Of a DNA stretch of 64,000 bases, positions 59,351 to 64,000 are shown one piece after another. The translations under genes and the position numbers were made by a program. Positions within the stretch are counted from its first letter, which is position 1. Each line of letters begins with the position of its first letter. The stretch comes from a virus: IMG/VR virus record IMGVR_UViG_3300045988_129166; one strand, written 5' to 3'. The notes below the pieces were generated by a model. That model was not told the origin of the DNA. It made no database searches and saw only the letters and a list, made by a program, of their open reading frames with translations.

Positions 59351-62208
59351 CAGCTATTTCTCCTTCTCTTTTTATATTTATCTTCTTCATCATCCTCCAA
59401 GCTCTTCAAATAAGGTGTAGAATAATCACCCATATTCATCACATCCTGATTACCTTGAACGTAAATAATTTGACCACTTGGAAGCATTCTCATATTTGGA
59501 GCTATAGAGGCTATGGTATTCAACGATGTACGAACATTGAACTTATTCTGTATCTCGCTGTTTATGCTGTCATAATAACGAGCAAGATTTTCATCCCTTA
59601 TAGCCATAGCTTTCAACAACCCAGATTCATAACGTTGCCTTTCTGCTATGTTCTTATCATCTGTCTGAACATAAGCCATTTCATTGAACCTGTCAGCTTC
59701 GTTTATTTGCCTTGCGTTACTGAAATTTACTTCATTAACGTACTTAGCTATATTGCTTCCAGCTATGGCGTTCATATTAGCCAGAATAGCAGCTCGCTGG
59801 GAGTCGGGCACGTCACCTACTGCGTCTAACTGAGCCGATGTCGCGCGGTTGAGCTCGTTGATATACTGATCAGCAGATTGGAGAACCGGGTCTATACGTG
59901 GTGCTTGATGCCTCTCTAGACCTTCTATTTCCAAGCCAGTGTCAAGGGTTCTCAGCATTTCCGGGAAGATAGGACCGAACGCCGCCGGTCTGCCCTGTCC
60001 TTTAGGTCCGTTGTCTTCAACCACCTCCTCTGTATCGGTGTCGGTTGCAGTCGCAGGCGTACTTGCTTTCGGTTTTACCTCTATCCTTCCAGGAGATCCA
60101 ATCTTAGGCGGTGTAAGGTCTGGTGCTATGGGACCGGCCTCAATAGGCTTCATTTCTGGTTTAACAGACTCAAGAACGAAGTCCATTTCCGGCATTAACC
60201 CGCTATCTTTTAAAGCAACAAACTTATTATAATCGGAGCCCAGAATCTTCTTAGCGGCATCAGATTTATCACCAAATAAGTCAACATAATTCTTAATTCC
60301 TTTTTCGTTTAACAATCTTTTTTGCTCTGCCGAAACAACGTCCAATCCATAATAAGAACGGGTGGCTGTTGTCTGACCAAACTTATCATCTACGGCAAAT
60401 GAATTATAAGCCTGATTACCTCCGTAGCTTCCGGCATCCTGGCCCCAGAATCCGTACTCATCTCTGAATTTCTTGGCTGCATCAGCATTCGTGATAGCAC
60501 CTACATCAGCTAACGCCCACAATGCATTTAATTGCCTGTTGTATCCTTTCTGGAAACCTTCTGTATCAAAATCACCATCCGTATTGTACTTGTTAGCCCA
60601 TCGGTTTACGTCGAGCAAATTAGATACCGCCTTATTATTTACCCTGCCGTATCCTAAATTACTTCTATGTTGTAGATTCTGATTGGCATTTACACTGGAA
60701 TCAGGATTAAGAATCTGCTCACGACCGCTAACATCAGATACAGTCATATTAAGAGTTCGTCCAAATAACTGATTGATAAGATTACTGTAGCCGATAGCAT
60801 TCTTTCTAAGTTCCTCCAGCTCCTTCTGAGTAGGTCCACCTTCAGCCATTTTTCTGGTTTGCTTAACATACTCGTCATATATCCAGTTCTTGGCATCTGA
60901 TTCTGCAATATTAAAAGCCTTGGCTTGTTTCTTTACCTGATTCAGATCAACAACCCCGCCATCCCTGAAGAAAGCATCCATCTTCTCGTTACGCTTAGAT
61001 TCTTCCTGTTTGCCATAAACGATTTCGGCAAAAGAACGGAATTGTGTTTCGAGATCGTCTATCTCCTTCTGATTTTCATTAACGTACTTAGAAAGAATAG
61101 ATGCATTGAGATTGGATGTGTTTTTATCTTTTACATCTTCATTTTTCTCTAATCTCTTATATACACGCTCCTGATCTTCGTACTTGTCAGCCAAACCGAT
61201 CTTCTTCTTATATCGATCAAGGAGTGTAGCATATGTGTCTTTAGACGTTGCCTTAATACCATAATTTTCTCTAATATAAGAAGCAAAATCATCATCGATA
61301 GTACGGTAATCTGAAATAATATGAGCTTCAGGCAAATCAACGGGAGTGCCACCATCTTCATGTCTGTTCCCTTTGGCTTCCATAGGTCCTACGGAGTCAG
61401 GAGTCAGCACATACTCGCCTTTCTCTATCTCTACGTTAGCATTATCCTCCATAGATTTAGGAAGAGGATAAATGTATTCTCCAGTCATATCGGACGTATC
61501 CATCTTCTGACCGTTACCTAAATTCACGCCACCACCTTCACGTTCCCACTTGATGAATTGCTGACGACGCTCCTTGGCAAGTTTTTCCCTTGCAGCCTGC
61601 TCGTCTCTGCTGGCTGCATACGCAGCAGATGAAGCTCCCATGATATTACGAGTAAGACCTAATCCTAAACTAACACCGGACAAGGCAGCTTGAGCCACAT
61701 TAGCACCGACCTTATTACCGGCTCTTATCCGACCAAGACTTGTACCGAACATTTGAGCTCTGCCGGTTAGATCAGGCGAATAATATGGCATAGTCATAGG
61801 ATCAAGAGGATTACCATCTTGGGAACGTTTTTCTTTATAGGAATCAGCATCAACACTACCTACATTCATTGCATTATTAACGACTGATTTCTCTACGTTT
61901 TTAACCATGCCCCTATTATCAGCGAGATATCCTGCATATCCTGCATCATGATTCTCAAAAAACGGATCGGATGTAGGCATACTACTAAATGGATTTATCT
62001 CCCCCTCCTCTGTTTCTAAAGTCACATCAGAAGGCATATATATATTCTGAATATCAGATTCACCCCATTTATTAACAGGCGTTCCATAATCAAGAATAGG
62101 CTGAGTAGAGGATACATTAATATCCTGTCTCTTATCCTGAACACTACCGCCAGGAGCGAATATCGGACGATTTTTTATGATTCGTAATCTCATACTATCT
62201 TTTTTCAC
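59350..62208 (-). CDS. Giant virion-associated protein (952 aa) with Gly/Ala-rich hydrophobic segment
   Basis: Long ORF; AGNKVGANVAQAALSGVSLGLGLT segment. Confidence 0.9.
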   Translation of the reverse strand: MKKDSMRLRIIKNRPIFAPGGSVQDKRQDINVSSTQPILDYGTPVNKWGESDIQNIYMPSDVTLETEEGEINPFSSMPTSDPFFENHDAGYAGYLADNRGMVKNVEKSVVNNAMNVGSVDADSYKEKRSQDGNPLDPMTMPYYSPDLTGRAQMFGTSLGRIRAGNKVGANVAQAALSGVSLGLGLTRNIMGASSAAYAASRDEQAAREKLAKERRQQFIKWEREGGGVNLGNGQKMDTSDMTGEYIYPLPKSMEDNANVEIEKGEYVLTPDSVGPMEAKGNRHEDGGTPVDLPEAHIISDYRTIDDDFASYIRENYGIKATSKDTYATLLDRYKKKIGLADKYEDQERVYKRLEKNEDVKDKNTSNLNASILSKYVNENQKEIDDLETQFRSFAEIVYGKQEESKRNEKMDAFFRDGGVVDLNQVKKQAKAFNIAESDAKNWIYDEYVKQTRKMAEGGPTQKELEELRKNAIGYSNLINQLFGRTLNMTVSDVSGREQILNPDSSVNANQNLQHRSNLGYGRVNNKAVSNLLDVNRWANKYNTDGDFDTEGFQKGYNRQLNALWALADVGAITNADAAKKFRDEYGFWGQDAGSYGGNQAYNSFAVDDKFGQTTATRSYYGLDVVSAEQKRLLNEKGIKNYVDLFGDKSDAAKKILGSDYNKFVALKDSGLMPEMDFVLESVKPEMKPIEAGPIAPDLTPPKIGSPGRIEVKPKASTPATATDTDTEEVVEDNGPKGQGRPAAFGPIFPEMLRTLDTGLEIEGLERHQAPRIDPVLQSADQYINELNRATSAQLDAVGDVPDSQRAAILANMNAIAGSNIAKYVNEVNFSNARQINEADRFNEMAYVQTDDKNIAERQRYESGLLKAMAIRDENLARYYDSINSEIQNKFNVRTSLNTIASIAPNMRMLPSGQIIYVQGNQDVMNMGDYSTPYLKSLEDDEEDKYKKRRRNS

Positions 62209-62261
62209 AAAGATAAGAGAAACGAACGAGAAAATCCAACGTTATGGGATACGTTTAAAAA

Positions 62262-63281
62262 TCAATCATGTACGGCAGACAAACCGCCCGAATCAGGGTC
62301 GTACTTAAGACCGCATGCCCGGCGATAGTTCTTAAGCGCTCTCTTGTACAAAAACAGCACTGTCTTGGAAACTATTTTCTTCATAGATTTGGTTAAAACC
62401 TCTTCTGTTGAAACAGACATCAGACAGCTATTCAAAAACGACCTGACATTGGAACCGAACAAGATCTTCACCATTTTTCTAAACGTTCTAAAAAGATATG
62501 ATGCAGAAAGAGACTTTAACCCATTGCGAACCAGTCTCTTATTCAAATACGAAACAGCCTTTTCAGATAGACAGAGCCTATTCTTTCCTTCGCTATCTAC
62601 CTCTGATGAAAACCACGAATATAAAGTGGTAGGATGTTTCTTAAGGTGATTAATGAAGGAAGTCATTATCCCTTCTTTTAAGGCCCTTTTGTGGGCTACG
62701 CATGCAGCAATCTTCTCTTCTCTTTTTAAAGAGCTGTCAAGGCATCTAAACACCGTCCTATCGTCTCCGATGAAATACTGAGGACGTTCTTCCTTGAACT
62801 TAGCCCGATAAGCGGCATATCCTTCCTTACGAAGCATATCTATCTGAGACCGGATATAGAACCTTACACACTTTTCTTCAGCCTCTTGCACGCTTTTAAG
62901 ATAAGGAACTGACTTTCTCCCATATCGAAGATAATCATAAACCATAGCCTCAATAAAGTCATTGTACGGAAAGAATCTTCCAAATCCAAAGTTCCAAACT
63001 ATGAAACATCGCACTCTATCTTTCCAGTAATCAGATATGAGAAAATTACTACAATATCTCAACTTCCTGTTTTTCTGATAGAAATGATGAGTATGTTTGT
63101 CATAAAATAGATTAAAATATTTCAAATTGCCTAAACACTGACCGGCTGGACGGCGTACTACATTGTACCCTAAGTTGCTGAAGCTATTGTATATAACTTC
63201 TATCGGAGAGACCTGCTCTTTCTTGAAGAGCTTGTCGTGTAACTTGTGAGGATTCATTATTTCAATTATTTTTGTCTCCAT
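62262..63281 (-). CDS. Hypothetical basic protein (339 aa), first gene of the minus-strand late operon
   Basis: ORF adjacent to the structured non-coding region; contains KHTHHFY and GYAAYRAKFK motifs (very weak resemblance to HUH/YxxK). Confidence 0.8.
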   Translation of the reverse strand: METKIIEIMNPHKLHDKLFKKEQVSPIEVIYNSFSNLGYNVVRRPAGQCLGNLKYFNLFYDKHTHHFYQKNRKLRYCSNFLISDYWKDRVRCFIVWNFGFGRFFPYNDFIEAMVYDYLRYGRKSVPYLKSVQEAEEKCVRFYIRSQIDMLRKEGYAAYRAKFKEERPQYFIGDDRTVFRCLDSSLKREEKIAACVAHKRALKEGIMTSFINHLKKHPTTLYSWFSSEVDSEGKNRLCLSEKAVSYLNKRLVRNGLKSLSASYLFRTFRKMVKILFGSNVRSFLNSCLMSVSTEEVLTKSMKKIVSKTVLFLYKRALKNYRRACGLKYDPDSGGLSAVHD

Positions 63282-63301
63282 ATTGTTTTTGTTTTTTAGT
63301 G

Positions 63302-63309
63302 CAAATATA
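63302..63309 (-). promoter_or_regulatory. Possible -7 element TATATTTG (minus sense) about 21 nt upstream of the late-operon ATG
   Basis: Pattern match to the Bacteroidetes TAnnTTTG consensus; no clean -33 TTTG. Confidence 0.2.
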
Positions 63310-63340
63310 TGATTTTATATAAAAAGAAGAAAATGCACTG

Positions 63341-63382
63341 CCTTGTATCCGGTTTGAGAGAAATAGGATACAAGGTTTTTTA
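63341..63382. terminator. Strong hairpin (10-bp perfect stem, 16-nt loop) flanked by T-run (plus sense) and A/T-rich tract: bidirectional terminator/insulator
   Basis: CCTTGTATCC/GGATACAAGG followed by TTTTTTATTTT. Confidence 0.55.
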
Positions 63383-63598
63383 TTTTATGACGGTTTGGAT
63401 AAGAGACAGGAAAACGACTCTGAACGTAACCGACTGACCGTCAGTGGTGGGACAACAAATCTTGAATTAAAACTACGCCTATGAATAGTCTCCGTTTTCC
63501 TTAATATTAAGACCATTTTCAATGATCTTACTCATTATATTATTTATATTATTTTATATACTTTACCATTTATTCATATAATTGTTTACAGTGAATGA

Positions 63599-63774
63599 AC
63601 TTAACGACCGAAGGGAGTTAAGTGAGTGAACAGATTAACAAATTACTTTTTCCGTCTATTGTATTGTTTGCCTAATTGTGTTAAAGGATTGAGTATCGTG
63701 ACCGAAGGGAACGATGCGAAAGAACATATAACATTTAAAAAACGACTGAACCTATCGACTGAAAGGAGATAGGT
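63599..63774. repeat. Array of three stem-loops with conserved 11-nt loop GAC(C/T)GAA(G/A)GGA and covarying stems (63599..63623, 63695..63715, 63750..63774), plus CGACYGAA iterons from 63415
   Basis: Stems ACTTAAC/GTTAAGT, ATCGT/ACGAT, ACCTATC/GATAGGT all perfect; loops GACCGAAGGGA, GACCGAAGGGA, GACTGAAAGGA. Confidence 0.8.
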
Positions 63775-63837
63775 GATGGAGTGACGTTAATAGTTATATT
63801 AGGTAGCCAGTGGAGAATTAGGCAGGCTGGTAGGCGA

Positions 63838-63857
63838 GACGGGCTCCCATGCCCGTC
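63838..63857. promoter_or_regulatory. GC-rich hairpin GACGGGC-TCCCAT-GCCCGTC without U-tract
   Basis: Perfect 7-bp inverted repeat seen directly. Confidence 0.5.
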
Positions 63858-64000
63858 AGGACAGTGGAGGTACGTAGGTCTGTTCTGTTAAACCAAGGCG
63901 ATGATAGTTCCATCCTTCACGAAATCGCACAAAAAGCCGGATTATCTTGATATCGTTCTTCAACCTTCGGTATCCGCATAACGAGTCTCAAATCCGGCTT

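What the first reader, a model, noticed from the sequence alone, without database searches (positions are those of the whole stretch)
63405..64000. Array of three stem-loops with a conserved 11-nt loop and covarying stems, plus CGACYGAA iterons, in a ~700-bp non-coding region
The region between the late-operon start (63281) and the window end is non-coding. At 63599, 63695 and 63750 there are three hairpins whose stems differ completely (ACTTAAC, ATCGT, ACCTATC) but whose loops are GACCGAAGGGA, GACCGAAGGGA and GACTGAAAGGA. Stem covariation with loop conservation is the signature of a selected structure whose loop is the recognition element. In the minus sense the loop reads UCCCUUCGGUC, which embeds a C(UUCG)G tetraloop. 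The octamer CGAC(C/T)GAA recurs at least six times (63415, 63431, 63743, 63757, 63606, 63700). Nearby are a perfect palindrome ACTGACCGTCAGT (63428..63440), a GC hairpin at 63838 and a 9-bp long-range inverted repeat AGCCGGATT/AATCCGGCT (63926/63991) cut by the window end. This could be a replication origin with iterons, a protein-operator array on DNA or RNA, or a structured ncRNA. The adjacent first late gene (62262..63281) is a basic protein with HxH / YxxK-like motifs, so a nicking-initiator/hairpin-origin pairing is a hypothesis worth testing.
Basis: seen in the sequence. Interest (0 to 1): 0.72.

Follow-up and report, generated by a model that had tools for sequence, protein, structure and literature searches.

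The report
Three GA-rich RNA-type hairpins in phage
A very abundant human-gut crAss-like phage has, next to an uncharacterised DNA/RNA-binding-type gene, three conserved 41-base hairpin "rods" made of alternating normal base pairs and G·A pairs; they look like a new structured non-coding RNA whose function is unknown.

Summary
The three hairpins are real, strand-specific and under selection. They are not stems with an open 11-nt loop. Each is a 41-nt rod on the window + strand: 2 bp, tandem G·A, 2 bp, tandem G·A, 7 bp, tandem G·A, 2 bp, GNA triloop. Compensatory changes occur in the stems and inside the supposed loop. The motif occurs nowhere else in the window or the 150-kb reference genome, and matches no Rfam family. 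The window is an epsilon crAss-like phage, 97.8% identical to csAssE-Sib (OR575929.1). The ~750-bp non-coding region always accompanies the adjacent 339-aa orphan gene, which has a winged-helix-like C-terminal half. Some genomes carry a second copy, about 60% identical in protein, at another site. One genome lacks a 290-bp block holding all three hairpins. My best reading is a + strand non-coding RNA whose hairpins are repeated protein-docking sites, perhaps for the neighbouring protein. Expression and binding are untested. A single-stranded-DNA role remains possible.

The parts
63591..63631 (+). Hairpin unit 1 (41 nt): GU-GA-AU-GA-ACUUAAC-GA-CC-GAA-GG-GA-GUUAAGU-GA-GU-GA-AC
   Evidence: Covariance-model hit of 60.6 bits. 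RNAfold gives ((..((..(((((((..((...))..)))))))..))..)). All three stem variants seen in related genomes make G·U on the + strand. Diversity pi is 0.006, against 0.029 in the next spacer.
63685..63725 (+). Hairpin unit 2 (41 nt): 7-bp stem GUAUCGU/ACGAUGC with a U·G pair, apex GACCGAAGGGA
   Evidence: Covariance-model hit of 56.5 bits. A variant, ACGATAC, turns the U·G into U-A. The orthologues in L209 and L204 keep the structure with different stems and GGA or GUA triloops.
63742..63782 (+). Hairpin unit 3 (41 nt): stem ACCUAUC/GAUAGGU, apex GACUGAAAGGA
   Evidence: Covariance-model hit of 58.6 bits. Pair 4:8 is U-A here, U·G in most relatives and C-G in two. Four genomes have GAC--GAA-GGA, with both partners deleted.
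63553..63582 (+). Promoter-like site TTTATA-18-TATAAT, ending 8 nt before unit 1
   Evidence: Consensus scan on L001 9354-9383, 10 of 12 matches. This is weak: 3 sites were found in the region against 3.7 expected. A -10-like hexamer sits at the same place in L204 (CATAAT) and L209 (TATAGT).
63523..63812 (.). 290-bp block (AT-rich stretch plus all three hairpins) that is absent from one related genome
   Evidence: L049 joins ...CATTTTCAA directly to GAGAATTAGG....
63813..63933 (+). G-rich segment conserved between lineages (GTAGCCA..GGCAGG..GTAGGCGAG-hairpin-CAGGACAG), including the GC hairpin 63838-63857. Its strand is uncertain.
   Evidence: Alignment of three lineages. GC skew is +0.2 to +0.44 here, against negative values in the flanking genes. 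The commonest variant of the GC hairpin gives A·C on the + strand but G·U on the - strand.
63934..64000 (-). Long stem AAGCCGGAUU/AAUCCGGCUU followed by a U-run on the minus strand. It is the likely terminator of the upstream tail-lysozyme gene. Its loop holds a fourth mini-hairpin, GA-UA-CC-GAA-GG-UU-GA, at 63960-63974 (-).
   Evidence: Inverted repeat I9. Compensatory changes: G-C to U-A in 3 genomes and GAUU/AAUC to AGCC/GGCU in L209. The G-to-A variant in 9 genomes is U·G only on the minus strand. L209 has GA-UU-CC-GAA-GG-AU-GA at the mini-hairpin site.
63341..63381 (+). T1: terminator-type hairpin (CCUUGUAUCC/GGAUACAAGG, inner UUU/AAA, GNRA-type cap) plus U6, oriented antisense to the 339-aa gene
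   Evidence: Present with different stems in every lineage, including L212, L214 and L255. It is the most conserved piece of the region, pi 0.0006.
63433..63445 (.). Small palindromic hairpin, CUGA-NNN-UCAG core
   Evidence: The core is conserved in L209 and L204, and the flanking pair varies A-T / C-G / T·G among genomes.
63302..63309 (-). Bacteroidota-type -7 promoter box TATATTTG (TAnnTTTG) for the 339-aa gene
   Evidence: Read from the sequence. The block GCAAAT.TA is conserved in all six aligned sequences. The consensus itself is from my own knowledge.
62262..63281 (-). 339-aa orphan gene that always accompanies the non-coding region. Its C-terminal half is helical with a winged-helix-like element.

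Best explanation
The three hairpins belong to a structured non-coding RNA read from the window + strand, antisense to the flanking genes. It would start near 63590 and run toward about 63930-64000.

Each hairpin is a 41-nt rod. Short Watson-Crick segments (2, 2, 7 and 2 bp) alternate with three tandem sheared G·A/A·G pairs, and a C-G-closed GNA triloop caps the rod. This gives three nearly identical, sequence-specific surfaces on otherwise different helices. That is the arrangement expected for repeated docking sites of one protein.

The most likely partner is the divergently encoded 339-aa winged-helix-like protein, which is inherited and duplicated together with the region. The RNA would then titrate, scaffold or regulate that protein.

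SHOWN: the structure, the strand, the selection, the restriction to this locus and the linkage to the gene.
INFERRED: that the molecule is RNA rather than single-stranded DNA, that it is transcribed from the proposed promoter, and the identity of the binding partner.
For: STRUCTURE. In 26 distinct units, 90.8% of cells are paired, against 36-48% when partners are slid. Eleven of 13 pairs show double-sided changes, and 0 of 500 shuffles reach the observed values. Inside the '11-mer', pair 3:9 is C-G, A-U or G-C, and pair 4:8 is C-G, U-G, U-A or co-deleted. L212 replaces 2 bp plus a triloop by 1 bp plus a GUGA tetraloop.

STRAND. All five stem substitutions seen among related genomes keep pairing on the + strand, as G·U or as U·G turned into U-A. 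On the - strand they would be A·C. The + strand RNA folds at -50.4 kcal/mol with z -3.94. The - strand folds at -27.4 with z -0.47.

RNA RATHER THAN DNA. Each unit folds at -9 to -17 kcal/mol with RNA parameters, against -1 to -7 with DNA parameters. A GNRA-capped terminator hairpin with a U-run, T1, lies on the same strand in all lineages. A -10-like hexamer sits 8 nt upstream of unit 1. GC skew is positive downstream.

SELECTION. Diversity is 0.006-0.023 in the units and 0.029-0.05 in the spacers.

SPECIFICITY. The only covariance-model hits below E 0.1 are in these regions, always in the same orientation. The exact hairpin motif is absent from the rest of the genome. Matches to the motif pattern in unrelated viral and bacterial contigs lack complementary arms.

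LINKAGE. A 540-1100-bp non-coding region lies upstream of this gene family in every lineage recovered. Some genomes carry two diverged gene-plus-region copies. The model of the protein has a winged-helix-like element.
Against: - There are no expression data.
- The promoter call is at chance level for the region (3 found, 3.7 expected). The host is probably a Bacteroidota member whose promoters differ from the sigma-70 consensus.
- No terminator was detected by the scan.
- C-GNA-G mini-hairpins and tandem G·A pairs are also very stable in DNA (my own knowledge).
- Similar GA-type hairpins lie on the opposite strand at 63960-63974, at L209 4890-4916 and at L214 2551-2575. So either both strands matter or the form is DNA.
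- One genome lacks the hairpins altogether, so they are not essential, unless that contig is misassembled.
- The units counted for covariation are paralogues and population variants, and the structure was derived from them.
Confidence: 0.5

Rival explanations
1. The hairpins act as single-stranded DNA on the + strand. One option is hairpin promoters for the phage's virion RNA polymerase, as in coliphage N4. With the + strand as template, transcription would then run toward the 339-aa gene and the polymerase genes. The other option is priming or origin signals, like the three hairpins of the phage G4 complementary-strand origin or the single-strand origins of rolling-circle plasmids.
For: - The structure is strand-specific.
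- The C-GNA-G apex matches the exceptionally stable d(GCGAAGC)-type DNA mini-hairpin (my own knowledge).
- The virion RNA polymerase of a crAss-like phage transcribes single-stranded but not double-stranded DNA in vitro.
- N4 uses DNA hairpin promoters extruded from supercoiled DNA. From my own knowledge, there are three of them, with 5-7-bp stems and 3-nt loops.
- An AT-rich stretch adjoins the hairpins.
- GA-type hairpins occur on both strands.
Against: - DNA-parameter stabilities are low, -0.9 to -7 kcal/mol, and G·T pairs are frequent.
- The locus sits among virion and late genes, and the motif is absent near any other gene block.
- Early transcripts of phage phi14:2 share no upstream motif.
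- GC skew shows no turning point here.
- T1 on the same strand is a typical RNA terminator.
- The 41-nt rod with three G·A tandems is far more elaborate than the N4 element.
Confidence: 0.2
2. The RNA is a decoy or sponge for a host factor or an anti-phage system, for example an antitoxin-RNA mimic in the manner of pseudo-ToxI or a CsrB-like titrator. On this reading it is not a partner of the neighbouring phage protein.
For: - It is an array of roughly 40-nt hairpin units with GGA-rich apices and flanks.
- It has accessory character. There is a second copy in some genomes and a natural deletion in one.
- Phages are known to carry antitoxin-RNA mimics (my own knowledge).
Against: - The units are neither tandem nor identical.
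- No known partner family is encoded nearby, and no PADLOC model matches at E below 0.004. The single marginal match, to distant homologue P0033, has E = 0.0042.
- The strict co-inheritance with the 339-aa gene across very divergent lineages points to a partner encoded by the phage itself.
Confidence: 0.15
3. The three conserved 11-mers are double-stranded-DNA operators or iterons, bound by the winged-helix protein for autoregulation or for a plasmid-like origin.
For: - There is a weak Rep3_C match in a homologue, E 0.03, below the family cut-off.
- The three 11-mers are in direct orientation next to an AT-rich stretch.
Against: - A double-stranded site does not need flanking arms that covary to stay complementary.
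- It does not need compensatory changes inside the 11-mer, or loss of both partners of a pair together.
- It would not show strong strand asymmetry.
- GC skew has no turning point here.
Confidence: 0.07
4. The hairpins are chance palindromes or neutral repeats with no function.
For: None beyond the lack of functional data.
Against: - The motif is unique in the window and the genome.
- The stems and apex covary.
- Diversity is reduced in the units.
- The hairpins are kept in lineages with only about 60% protein identity in the neighbouring gene.
Confidence: 0.02

Closest known systems
Coliphage N4 early promoters (DNA hairpins recognised by the virion RNA polymerase)
   Same: Both are a small set of short hairpins with a purine-rich 3-nt loop, conserved apical and flanking bases and differing stems. 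Both are strand-specific, and both occur in a phage that injects its own RNA polymerase.
   Different: - The N4 hairpins are plain stems on the template strand next to early genes, read by a T7-like enzyme.
- Here the rods carry three G·A tandems and sit in a late or virion gene block.
- The crAss polymerase has a two-barrel fold.
- Stability is much higher as RNA than as DNA.
Arrays of protein-binding RNA hairpins (ToxI-type antitoxin repeats; CsrB/RsmZ GGA-loop sponges; lambda boxB/nut sites)
   Same: Both present repeated units of about 40 nt, or hairpins, that show the same short motif several times in one transcript. In ToxIN the array lies beside the gene of the protein it controls.
   Different: - ToxI repeats are identical, tandem, on the toxin's strand and followed by a terminator before the gene.
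- Csr loops are open ANGGA loops.
- boxB is a single GNRA-like pentaloop.
- None has the G·A-tandem rod, and none of the partner protein families is present.
d(GCGAAGC)/GNA mini-hairpins and the three-hairpin complementary-strand origin of phage G4 (and ssoA-type origins)
   Same: Both have a C-GNA-G apex, three hairpins within about 200 nt and strand- and orientation-specific structure.
   Different: - Those act in single-stranded-DNA replicons.
- This is a 151-kb double-stranded-DNA phage with no skew turning point here.
- The hairpins can be lost.
Kink-turn / box C/D and other tandem sheared G·A motifs
   Same: Both have tandem 5'-GA/3'-AG pairs next to Watson-Crick helices. Unit 3 even has CUGA on the 5' side and GAUG on the 3' side.
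   Different: - There is no 3-nt bulge. The 'complex' units have a 1-nt bulge at most.
- The order of the box-like elements is inverted.
- No L7Ae-type protein was identified.
Large ornate phage-associated RNAs of unknown function (GOLLD, ROOL, HEARO)
   Same: Both are long, conserved, highly structured non-coding regions in phage genomes.
   Different: There is no Rfam match at all, even at E up to 10. The architecture differs.

Membership tests
Any Rfam 15 RNA family | A covariance-model match at or near the gathering score | tested here: not met
   Window 62000-64000 at E up to 10 gave only chance-level hits. L204, L209, L212 and L214 at E up to 1 gave nothing relevant.
HUH (Rep/relaxase/transposase) nickase with a hairpin origin | Conserved His-hydrophobic-His motif and a catalytic Tyr in the adjacent protein | tested here: not met
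   DKHTHHFY is NGRFDRWY at 83% identity. The invariant residues of the 13-sequence alignment are M1, N97, G154, P167, F170, K190, N247, G254 and G276, with no His, Tyr, Asp or Glu among them. No Pfam match.
HUH (Rep/relaxase/transposase) nickase with a hairpin origin | An open, conserved loop carrying the nick site | tested here: not met
   The 11-mer is internally paired, with 3:9 and 4:8 covarying and only 3 nt unpaired.
Iteron-type replication origin | Several near-identical double-stranded direct repeats of about 17-22 bp | tested here: not met
   Only the 11-mer and the GA dinucleotides are shared. The arms differ and covary as inverted repeats. CGACYGAA has 3 exact copies, not 6.
Iteron-type replication origin | Genome-scale signature of an origin (a GC-skew turning point) | tested here: not met
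   Cumulative skew turns at about 17 kb and 110 kb of OR575929.1, not at 78 kb. Skew here follows gene orientation, so this is weak evidence.
N4-type DNA hairpin promoter | A 5-7-bp stem with a 3-nt loop on the template strand, upstream of early genes | tested here: inconclusive
   The 7-bp stems and 3-nt terminal loop are met. However, there is an extra G·A/2-bp apex, the locus is in the virion-gene block, and the motif is absent elsewhere in the genome. Template activity is not testable here.
N4-type DNA hairpin promoter | A T7-like single-subunit virion RNA polymerase | not tested
   crAss-like virion polymerases have the two-barrel fold according to the literature (abstracts). The polymerase of this phage was not analysed here.
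Type III toxin-antitoxin (ToxIN/CptIN/TenpIN) | Tandem identical RNA repeats, then a terminator, then the toxin gene, all on one strand | tested here: not met
   The units are 53 and 16 nt apart, differ in sequence and lie on the strand opposite to the gene. T1 is also antisense to the gene.
Type III toxin-antitoxin (ToxIN/CptIN/TenpIN) | A ToxN/AbiQ-family endoribonuclease | tested here: not met
   No Pfam or PADLOC match for the protein or its homologues.
   It needs 3:8 pairing, which is U·C in GAACGTAGTGA and C·C in GAGCGAAGCGA. Most copies of unit 3 would read UUCA. The minus strand has z -0.47.
Kink-turn | Canonical stem, 3-nt bulge, then tandem G·A/A·G | tested here: not met
   Tandem G·A pairs are present, but with no bulge in the simple units and a 1-nt bulge in the complex units.
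Intrinsic terminators (for the three hairpins) | A GC-rich stem followed by a U-run | tested here: not met
   No T-run follows any of the three on either strand. The scan found no terminators. T1 and the 63934-64000 stem do have U-runs.
Winged-helix nucleic-acid-binding proteins (the 339-aa protein) | A helix-turn-helix followed by a beta-hairpin wing | tested here: inconclusive

The most novel reading that the evidence does not exclude
The module is a previously undescribed phage ribonucleoprotein system. It would consist of an RNA carrying several 'GA-rod' hairpins (Watson-Crick steps alternating with tandem sheared G·A pairs under a GNA or GNRA cap) and a cognate orphan winged-helix protein that reads them. 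The pair would be kept together across the lineages of epsilon crAss-like phage recovered here and copied as a unit to new genomic sites. It would control some step of infection, for example expression or loading of the injected proteins encoded just downstream.
Probability: 0.3. Interest if true: 0.75.

Novelty: new variant of a known kind. Interest (0 to 1): 0.6.

Why it matters
Epsilon crAss-like phages of this species are extremely common in human-gut metagenomes. The neighbouring protein's 90%-identity cluster alone has 5145 member sequences. Almost nothing is known about their regulation.

The hairpins give a well-defined, covariation-supported RNA or single-stranded-DNA motif with no database match. 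It is tied to an orphan protein family and sits directly upstream of the block that encodes the injected proteins and virion RNA polymerase.

If it is an RNA-protein pair, it offers a handle on crAss-like gene control and a new RNA-recognition mode built on repeated tandem G·A pairs. If it is a DNA hairpin signal, it would be the first candidate cis-element for the crAss virion polymerase or for replication.

Either answer can be tested directly with RNA-seq and gel-shift assays.

Tried and rejected
- Rfam scans of the window region, the reference locus and four divergent loci found nothing.
- tRNA and tmRNA scan: none.
- Exact-pattern scans of viral contigs and bacterial genomes for TGA-N7-GACYGAARGGA-N7-GA hit only this phage species as true hairpins. 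Other hits have non-complementary arms: the number of paired positions peaks at 2-3 of 7, as expected by chance.
- Pfam, PHROGs, NCBIfam, PADLOC and PDB sequence searches of the 339-aa protein and its distant homologues found nothing.
- The first AlphaFold2 model (8 sequences, pLDDT 58) gave meaningless Foldseek hits. The second model (13 sequences, pLDDT 75.9) gave only low-Z winged-helix hits. The afdb50 library was unavailable.
- The HUH nickase idea was rejected on conservation.
- A coding reading of the region, including recoded stop codons, was rejected. TAA, TGA and TAG are all present in every frame, and there are 1-2-nt indels between genomes.
- A trans-acting antisense role within the phage was rejected. 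There is no complementarity of 13 nt or more elsewhere in the genome outside AT-rich runs.
- A replication origin judged by GC skew was rejected.
- Hammerhead, K-turn and box C/D readings were considered from the GA/CUGA/GAUG elements and rejected on architecture.
- The literature gave no lead. The csAssE-Sib genome paper does not mention the region. One search term was wasted. The N4 promoter paper PMC2639713 is not held.
- A loose 'GA-rod' scanner has a background of about 6-13 hits per Mb. The single hits in L214 and on the opposite strand of L209 are therefore only suggestive.
Full report
WHAT THE WINDOW IS.
- Window 62200-64000 is 97.8% identical to phage csAssE-Sib, OR575929.1. This is a 151-kb epsilon crAss-like phage from the human gut, described in PMC11054128. 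That paper does not mention this region.
- In the reference, the finding lies in a 751-bp gap. On one side is the 3' end of the tail-lysozyme gene, which ends about 33 bp beyond the window. On the other is a 339-aa hypothetical gene at window 62262-63281.
- Both genes are on the window minus strand. Three large 'structural' genes follow.
- The gap has stops in all frames. Related genomes differ there by 1-2-nt indels. It is therefore non-coding.

CHECK OF THE OBSERVATION.
- The three hairpins and their 11-mers are exactly where stated.
- GACYGAARGGA has three perfect matches in the window, all on the + strand within 160 nt.
- In the 150 kb fetched of the reference genome, the motif flanked by complementary arms occurs only here.
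- The middle stem is really 7 bp with one U·G pair.
- The 'six CGACYGAA iterons' are three exact copies. The octamer is not enriched window-wide.
- The coordinates of the palindrome (63433-63445) and the long inverted repeat (63934-63943 / 63991-64000) were off by 5 and 8 nt.

THE REAL ANATOMY.
- Aligning the three copies shows that conservation extends 8 nt beyond each stem.
- The unit is 41 nt: NN-GA-NN-GA-[7 bp]-GA-NN-GNA-N'N'-GA-[7 bp]-GA-N'N'-GA-N'N'.
- RNAfold on its own returns ((..((..(((((((..((...))..)))))))..))..)) for unit 1.
- This describes Watson-Crick steps of 2, 2, 7 and 2 bp separated by three 2x2 internal loops. Each loop is 5'-GA/3'-AG, the classical tandem sheared G·A arrangement (my own knowledge). 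A 3-nt loop caps the rod.

COMPARATIVE EVIDENCE: THE SEQUENCES USED.
- Eighty IMG/VR relatives with 96-99% protein identity in the neighbouring gene.
- More distant homologues of that gene found by protein search.
- Their contigs: L209 (83% identity); L204-L208 and L211 (about 60%); L212 (42%); L214 (21%); L255 (19%).

COMPARATIVE EVIDENCE: WHAT IT SHOWS.
- L209 and L204 keep three hairpins at the same places, with different stems.
- Inside the supposed loop, positions 3:9 are C-G in the window, A-U in L209 (GAACGTAGTGA) and G-C in L204 (GAGCGAAGCGA).
- Positions 4:8 are C-G, U·G or U-A. In four genomes both partners are deleted together (GAC--GAA-GGA).
- The middle base of the triloop is free (GAA, GUA, GGA).
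- L212 has GA-C-GUGA-G-GA, which is 1 bp plus a GNRA tetraloop.
- Some orthologous units replace the middle of the 7-bp stem by a further G·A tandem (ACC-GA-AU-c-GA...GA-GU-GA-GGU).
- On 26 distinct 41-nt units, 90.8% of cells pair, against 36-48% for slid partners. Eleven of 13 pairs have double-sided changes, and no shuffle reaches the observed values.
- Caveat: the rows are paralogues and population variants, and the structure was derived from them.

STRAND.
- All five stem substitutions among related genomes preserve pairing on the + strand, as G·U or as U·G turned into U-A. On the minus strand they would be A·C.
- The G·A tandems would be C·U/U·C on the minus strand.
- As RNA, the + strand of 63588-63790 folds at -50.4 kcal/mol, z -3.94, and 0 of 200 shuffles fold as well. 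The minus strand folds at -27.4 kcal/mol, z -0.47.
The covarying variants contradict that.

SPECIFICITY AND SELECTION.
- A covariance model of the unit finds the three units in the window and the orthologous or paralogous units in other genomes, always in the same orientation.
- It finds nothing else below E = 0.1 in 429 kb.
- Pattern hits in unrelated viral contigs and bacterial genomes lack complementary arms.
- Nucleotide diversity among 81 genomes is 0.006, 0.023 and 0.014 in units 1-3. It is 0.029-0.05 in the spacers and 0.045 at the start of the neighbouring coding sequence.

THE MODULE AROUND THE HAIRPINS.
- The whole non-coding region is homologous between lineages.
- Besides the hairpins it contains five elements.
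  (i) A Bacteroidota-type -7 box (TATATTTG) for the 339-aa gene, at 63302-63309 on the minus strand.
  (ii) T1, at 63341-63381. This is a hairpin with an inner UUU/AAA helix and a GNRA-type cap, followed by U6 on the + strand, antisense to the gene. Its stems covary, and it is present even in L212, L214 and L255. It is almost invariant within the species, pi 0.0006.
  (iii) A small CUGA-NNN-UCAG hairpin.
  (iv) An AT-rich stretch with a sigma-70-like TTTATA-18-TATAAT ending 8 nt before unit 1. This is a weak call, at chance level for the region.
  (v) A conserved G-rich segment with positive GC skew.
- The stem at 63934-64000 shows compensatory changes, and a U·G variant that works only on the minus strand. 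A U-run follows it on that strand. It is most simply the terminator of the lysozyme gene.
- The loop of that stem holds a fourth GA-NN-CC-GAA-GG-NN-GA mini-hairpin on the minus strand.

MOBILITY.
- In L204-L208, L211 and 38 IMG/VR contigs, a homologue of the gene with about 60% identity lies at a different site. Its own ~750-bp upstream region, with three hairpins, comes with it. The site is between a DUF6808 gene and a 292-aa structural gene.
- At that site csAssE-Sib has only a short gap.
- Several contigs appear in both the lysozyme-site and the DUF6808-site lists. For example, _099418 appears as L024 and L227. Some genomes therefore carry two copies.
- One genome, L049, lacks 63523-63812: the AT-rich stretch and all three hairpins.

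THE NEIGHBOURING PROTEIN.
- It has no match in Pfam, PHROGs, NCBIfam, PADLOC or PDB sequences.
- The family is tiny: 22 clusters among 1.8 billion representative proteins.
No potential catalytic residue is invariant. A nickase, nuclease or transposase role is therefore unlikely.
- A 13-sequence AlphaFold2 model (pLDDT 75.9) has a confident helical C-terminal half with a helix / beta-hairpin / helix element.
- This suggests nucleic-acid binding and nothing more.

INTERPRETATION.
- SHOWN: a strand-specific, selected, locus-specific structure linked to an orphan gene.
- INFERRED: the acting molecule is RNA. Four points support this.
  - Stability is much higher with RNA parameters than with DNA parameters.
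  - G·U pairs are frequent.
  - GNRA caps occur.
  - A canonical terminator lies on the same strand.
- Three copies of an identical apex and identical G·A steps on different helices fit repeated docking sites for one protein. The co-inherited winged-helix-like protein is the obvious candidate.
- I put 0.5 on this reading.

MAIN RIVAL.
- The main rival (0.2) is a single-stranded-DNA function.
- C-GNA-G mini-hairpins are famously stable in DNA (my own knowledge).
- The crAss virion polymerase transcribes only single-stranded DNA in vitro.
- N4 uses DNA hairpin promoters.
- GA-type hairpins occur on both strands here.
- Against it:
  - DNA stability is low.
  - The locus is in the late-gene block.
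  - The motif is absent elsewhere in the genome.
  - GC skew has no turning point here.

OTHER READINGS.
- A decoy RNA for a host factor (0.15) and double-stranded operators or iterons (0.07) are less likely, for the reasons given under the rivals.

NOVELTY.
- No Rfam family, no described crAss element and no paper found describes these hairpins.
- Phage regulatory hairpin arrays and structured phage RNAs are known kinds of thing. The G·A-rod architecture and its link to this orphan protein family are new.
- The function is unproven.

Noticed in passing
L001:12777-14411(-) and L001:14797-14901(-) (OR575929.1, 3-5 kb beyond the window end): The phage encodes a Ro60/Rsr homologue next to tRNA-Lys and tRNA-Tyr. 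A sub-threshold Rfam YrlA (Y RNA-like) hit of 28.5 bits, E 0.006, lies just beyond them, overlapping a weak tRNA-like hit. This could be a phage Rsr plus Y-RNA pair.
   Followed up: no
window 63341-63381 (+): T1 is a GNRA-capped hairpin plus U6, oriented antisense to the 339-aa gene and lying just upstream of that gene's promoter. Its stems covary in all lineages, and it is the least variable piece of the region. What transcript it ends is unknown. A + strand TAnnTTTG box at 63267-63274 would give a cis-antisense RNA of about 100 nt over the gene's start.
   Followed up: partly
L056 (IMGVR_UViG_3300045988_133728), insertion at window ~63952: A ~550-bp insertion lies inside the loop of the 63934-64000 stem. 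It encodes a 117-aa fragment with a Cas12f1-like TNB domain (PF07282, E 6e-12), a TnpB remnant.
   Followed up: partly
L204-L208, L211, L217-L254 (site equivalent to OR575929.1 41576-41676): A second copy of the gene, about 60% identical in protein, together with its own upstream non-coding region and three hairpins, lies between a DUF6808 gene and a 292-aa structural gene. Some genomes carry both copies.
   Followed up: yes
window 63960-63974 (-); L209:4890-4916 (+); L214:2551-2575 (+): GA-tandem mini-hairpins of the same style lie on the strand opposite to the three main units. One is GA-UA-CC-GAA-GG-UU-GA inside the lysozyme terminator loop. The scanner's background is about 6-13 per Mb, so the L209 and L214 cases are only suggestive.
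   Followed up: partly
window 63461-63522: A 62-nt stretch between the palindrome and the AT-rich block is nearly invariant within the species (pi 0.008) and partly conserved between lineages. No structure or motif was assigned to it.
   Followed up: no
window 63838-63857: In the GC hairpin, the commonest population variant (GACGAGC/GCCCGTC) is A·C on the + strand but G·U on the - strand. The L204 version pairs better on the + strand. The strand on which this element acts is unresolved.
   Followed up: partly
L214:1906-3000 and L255:2392-2930: Distant homologues of the gene (19-21% identity) also have upstream non-coding regions of 540-1100 bp. Each has an antisense T1-like terminator and an AT-rich stretch. 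L214 also has repeated GAGCGAA / GCGAGC-GACA-GCGAGC elements on the gene-sense strand.
   Followed up: partly
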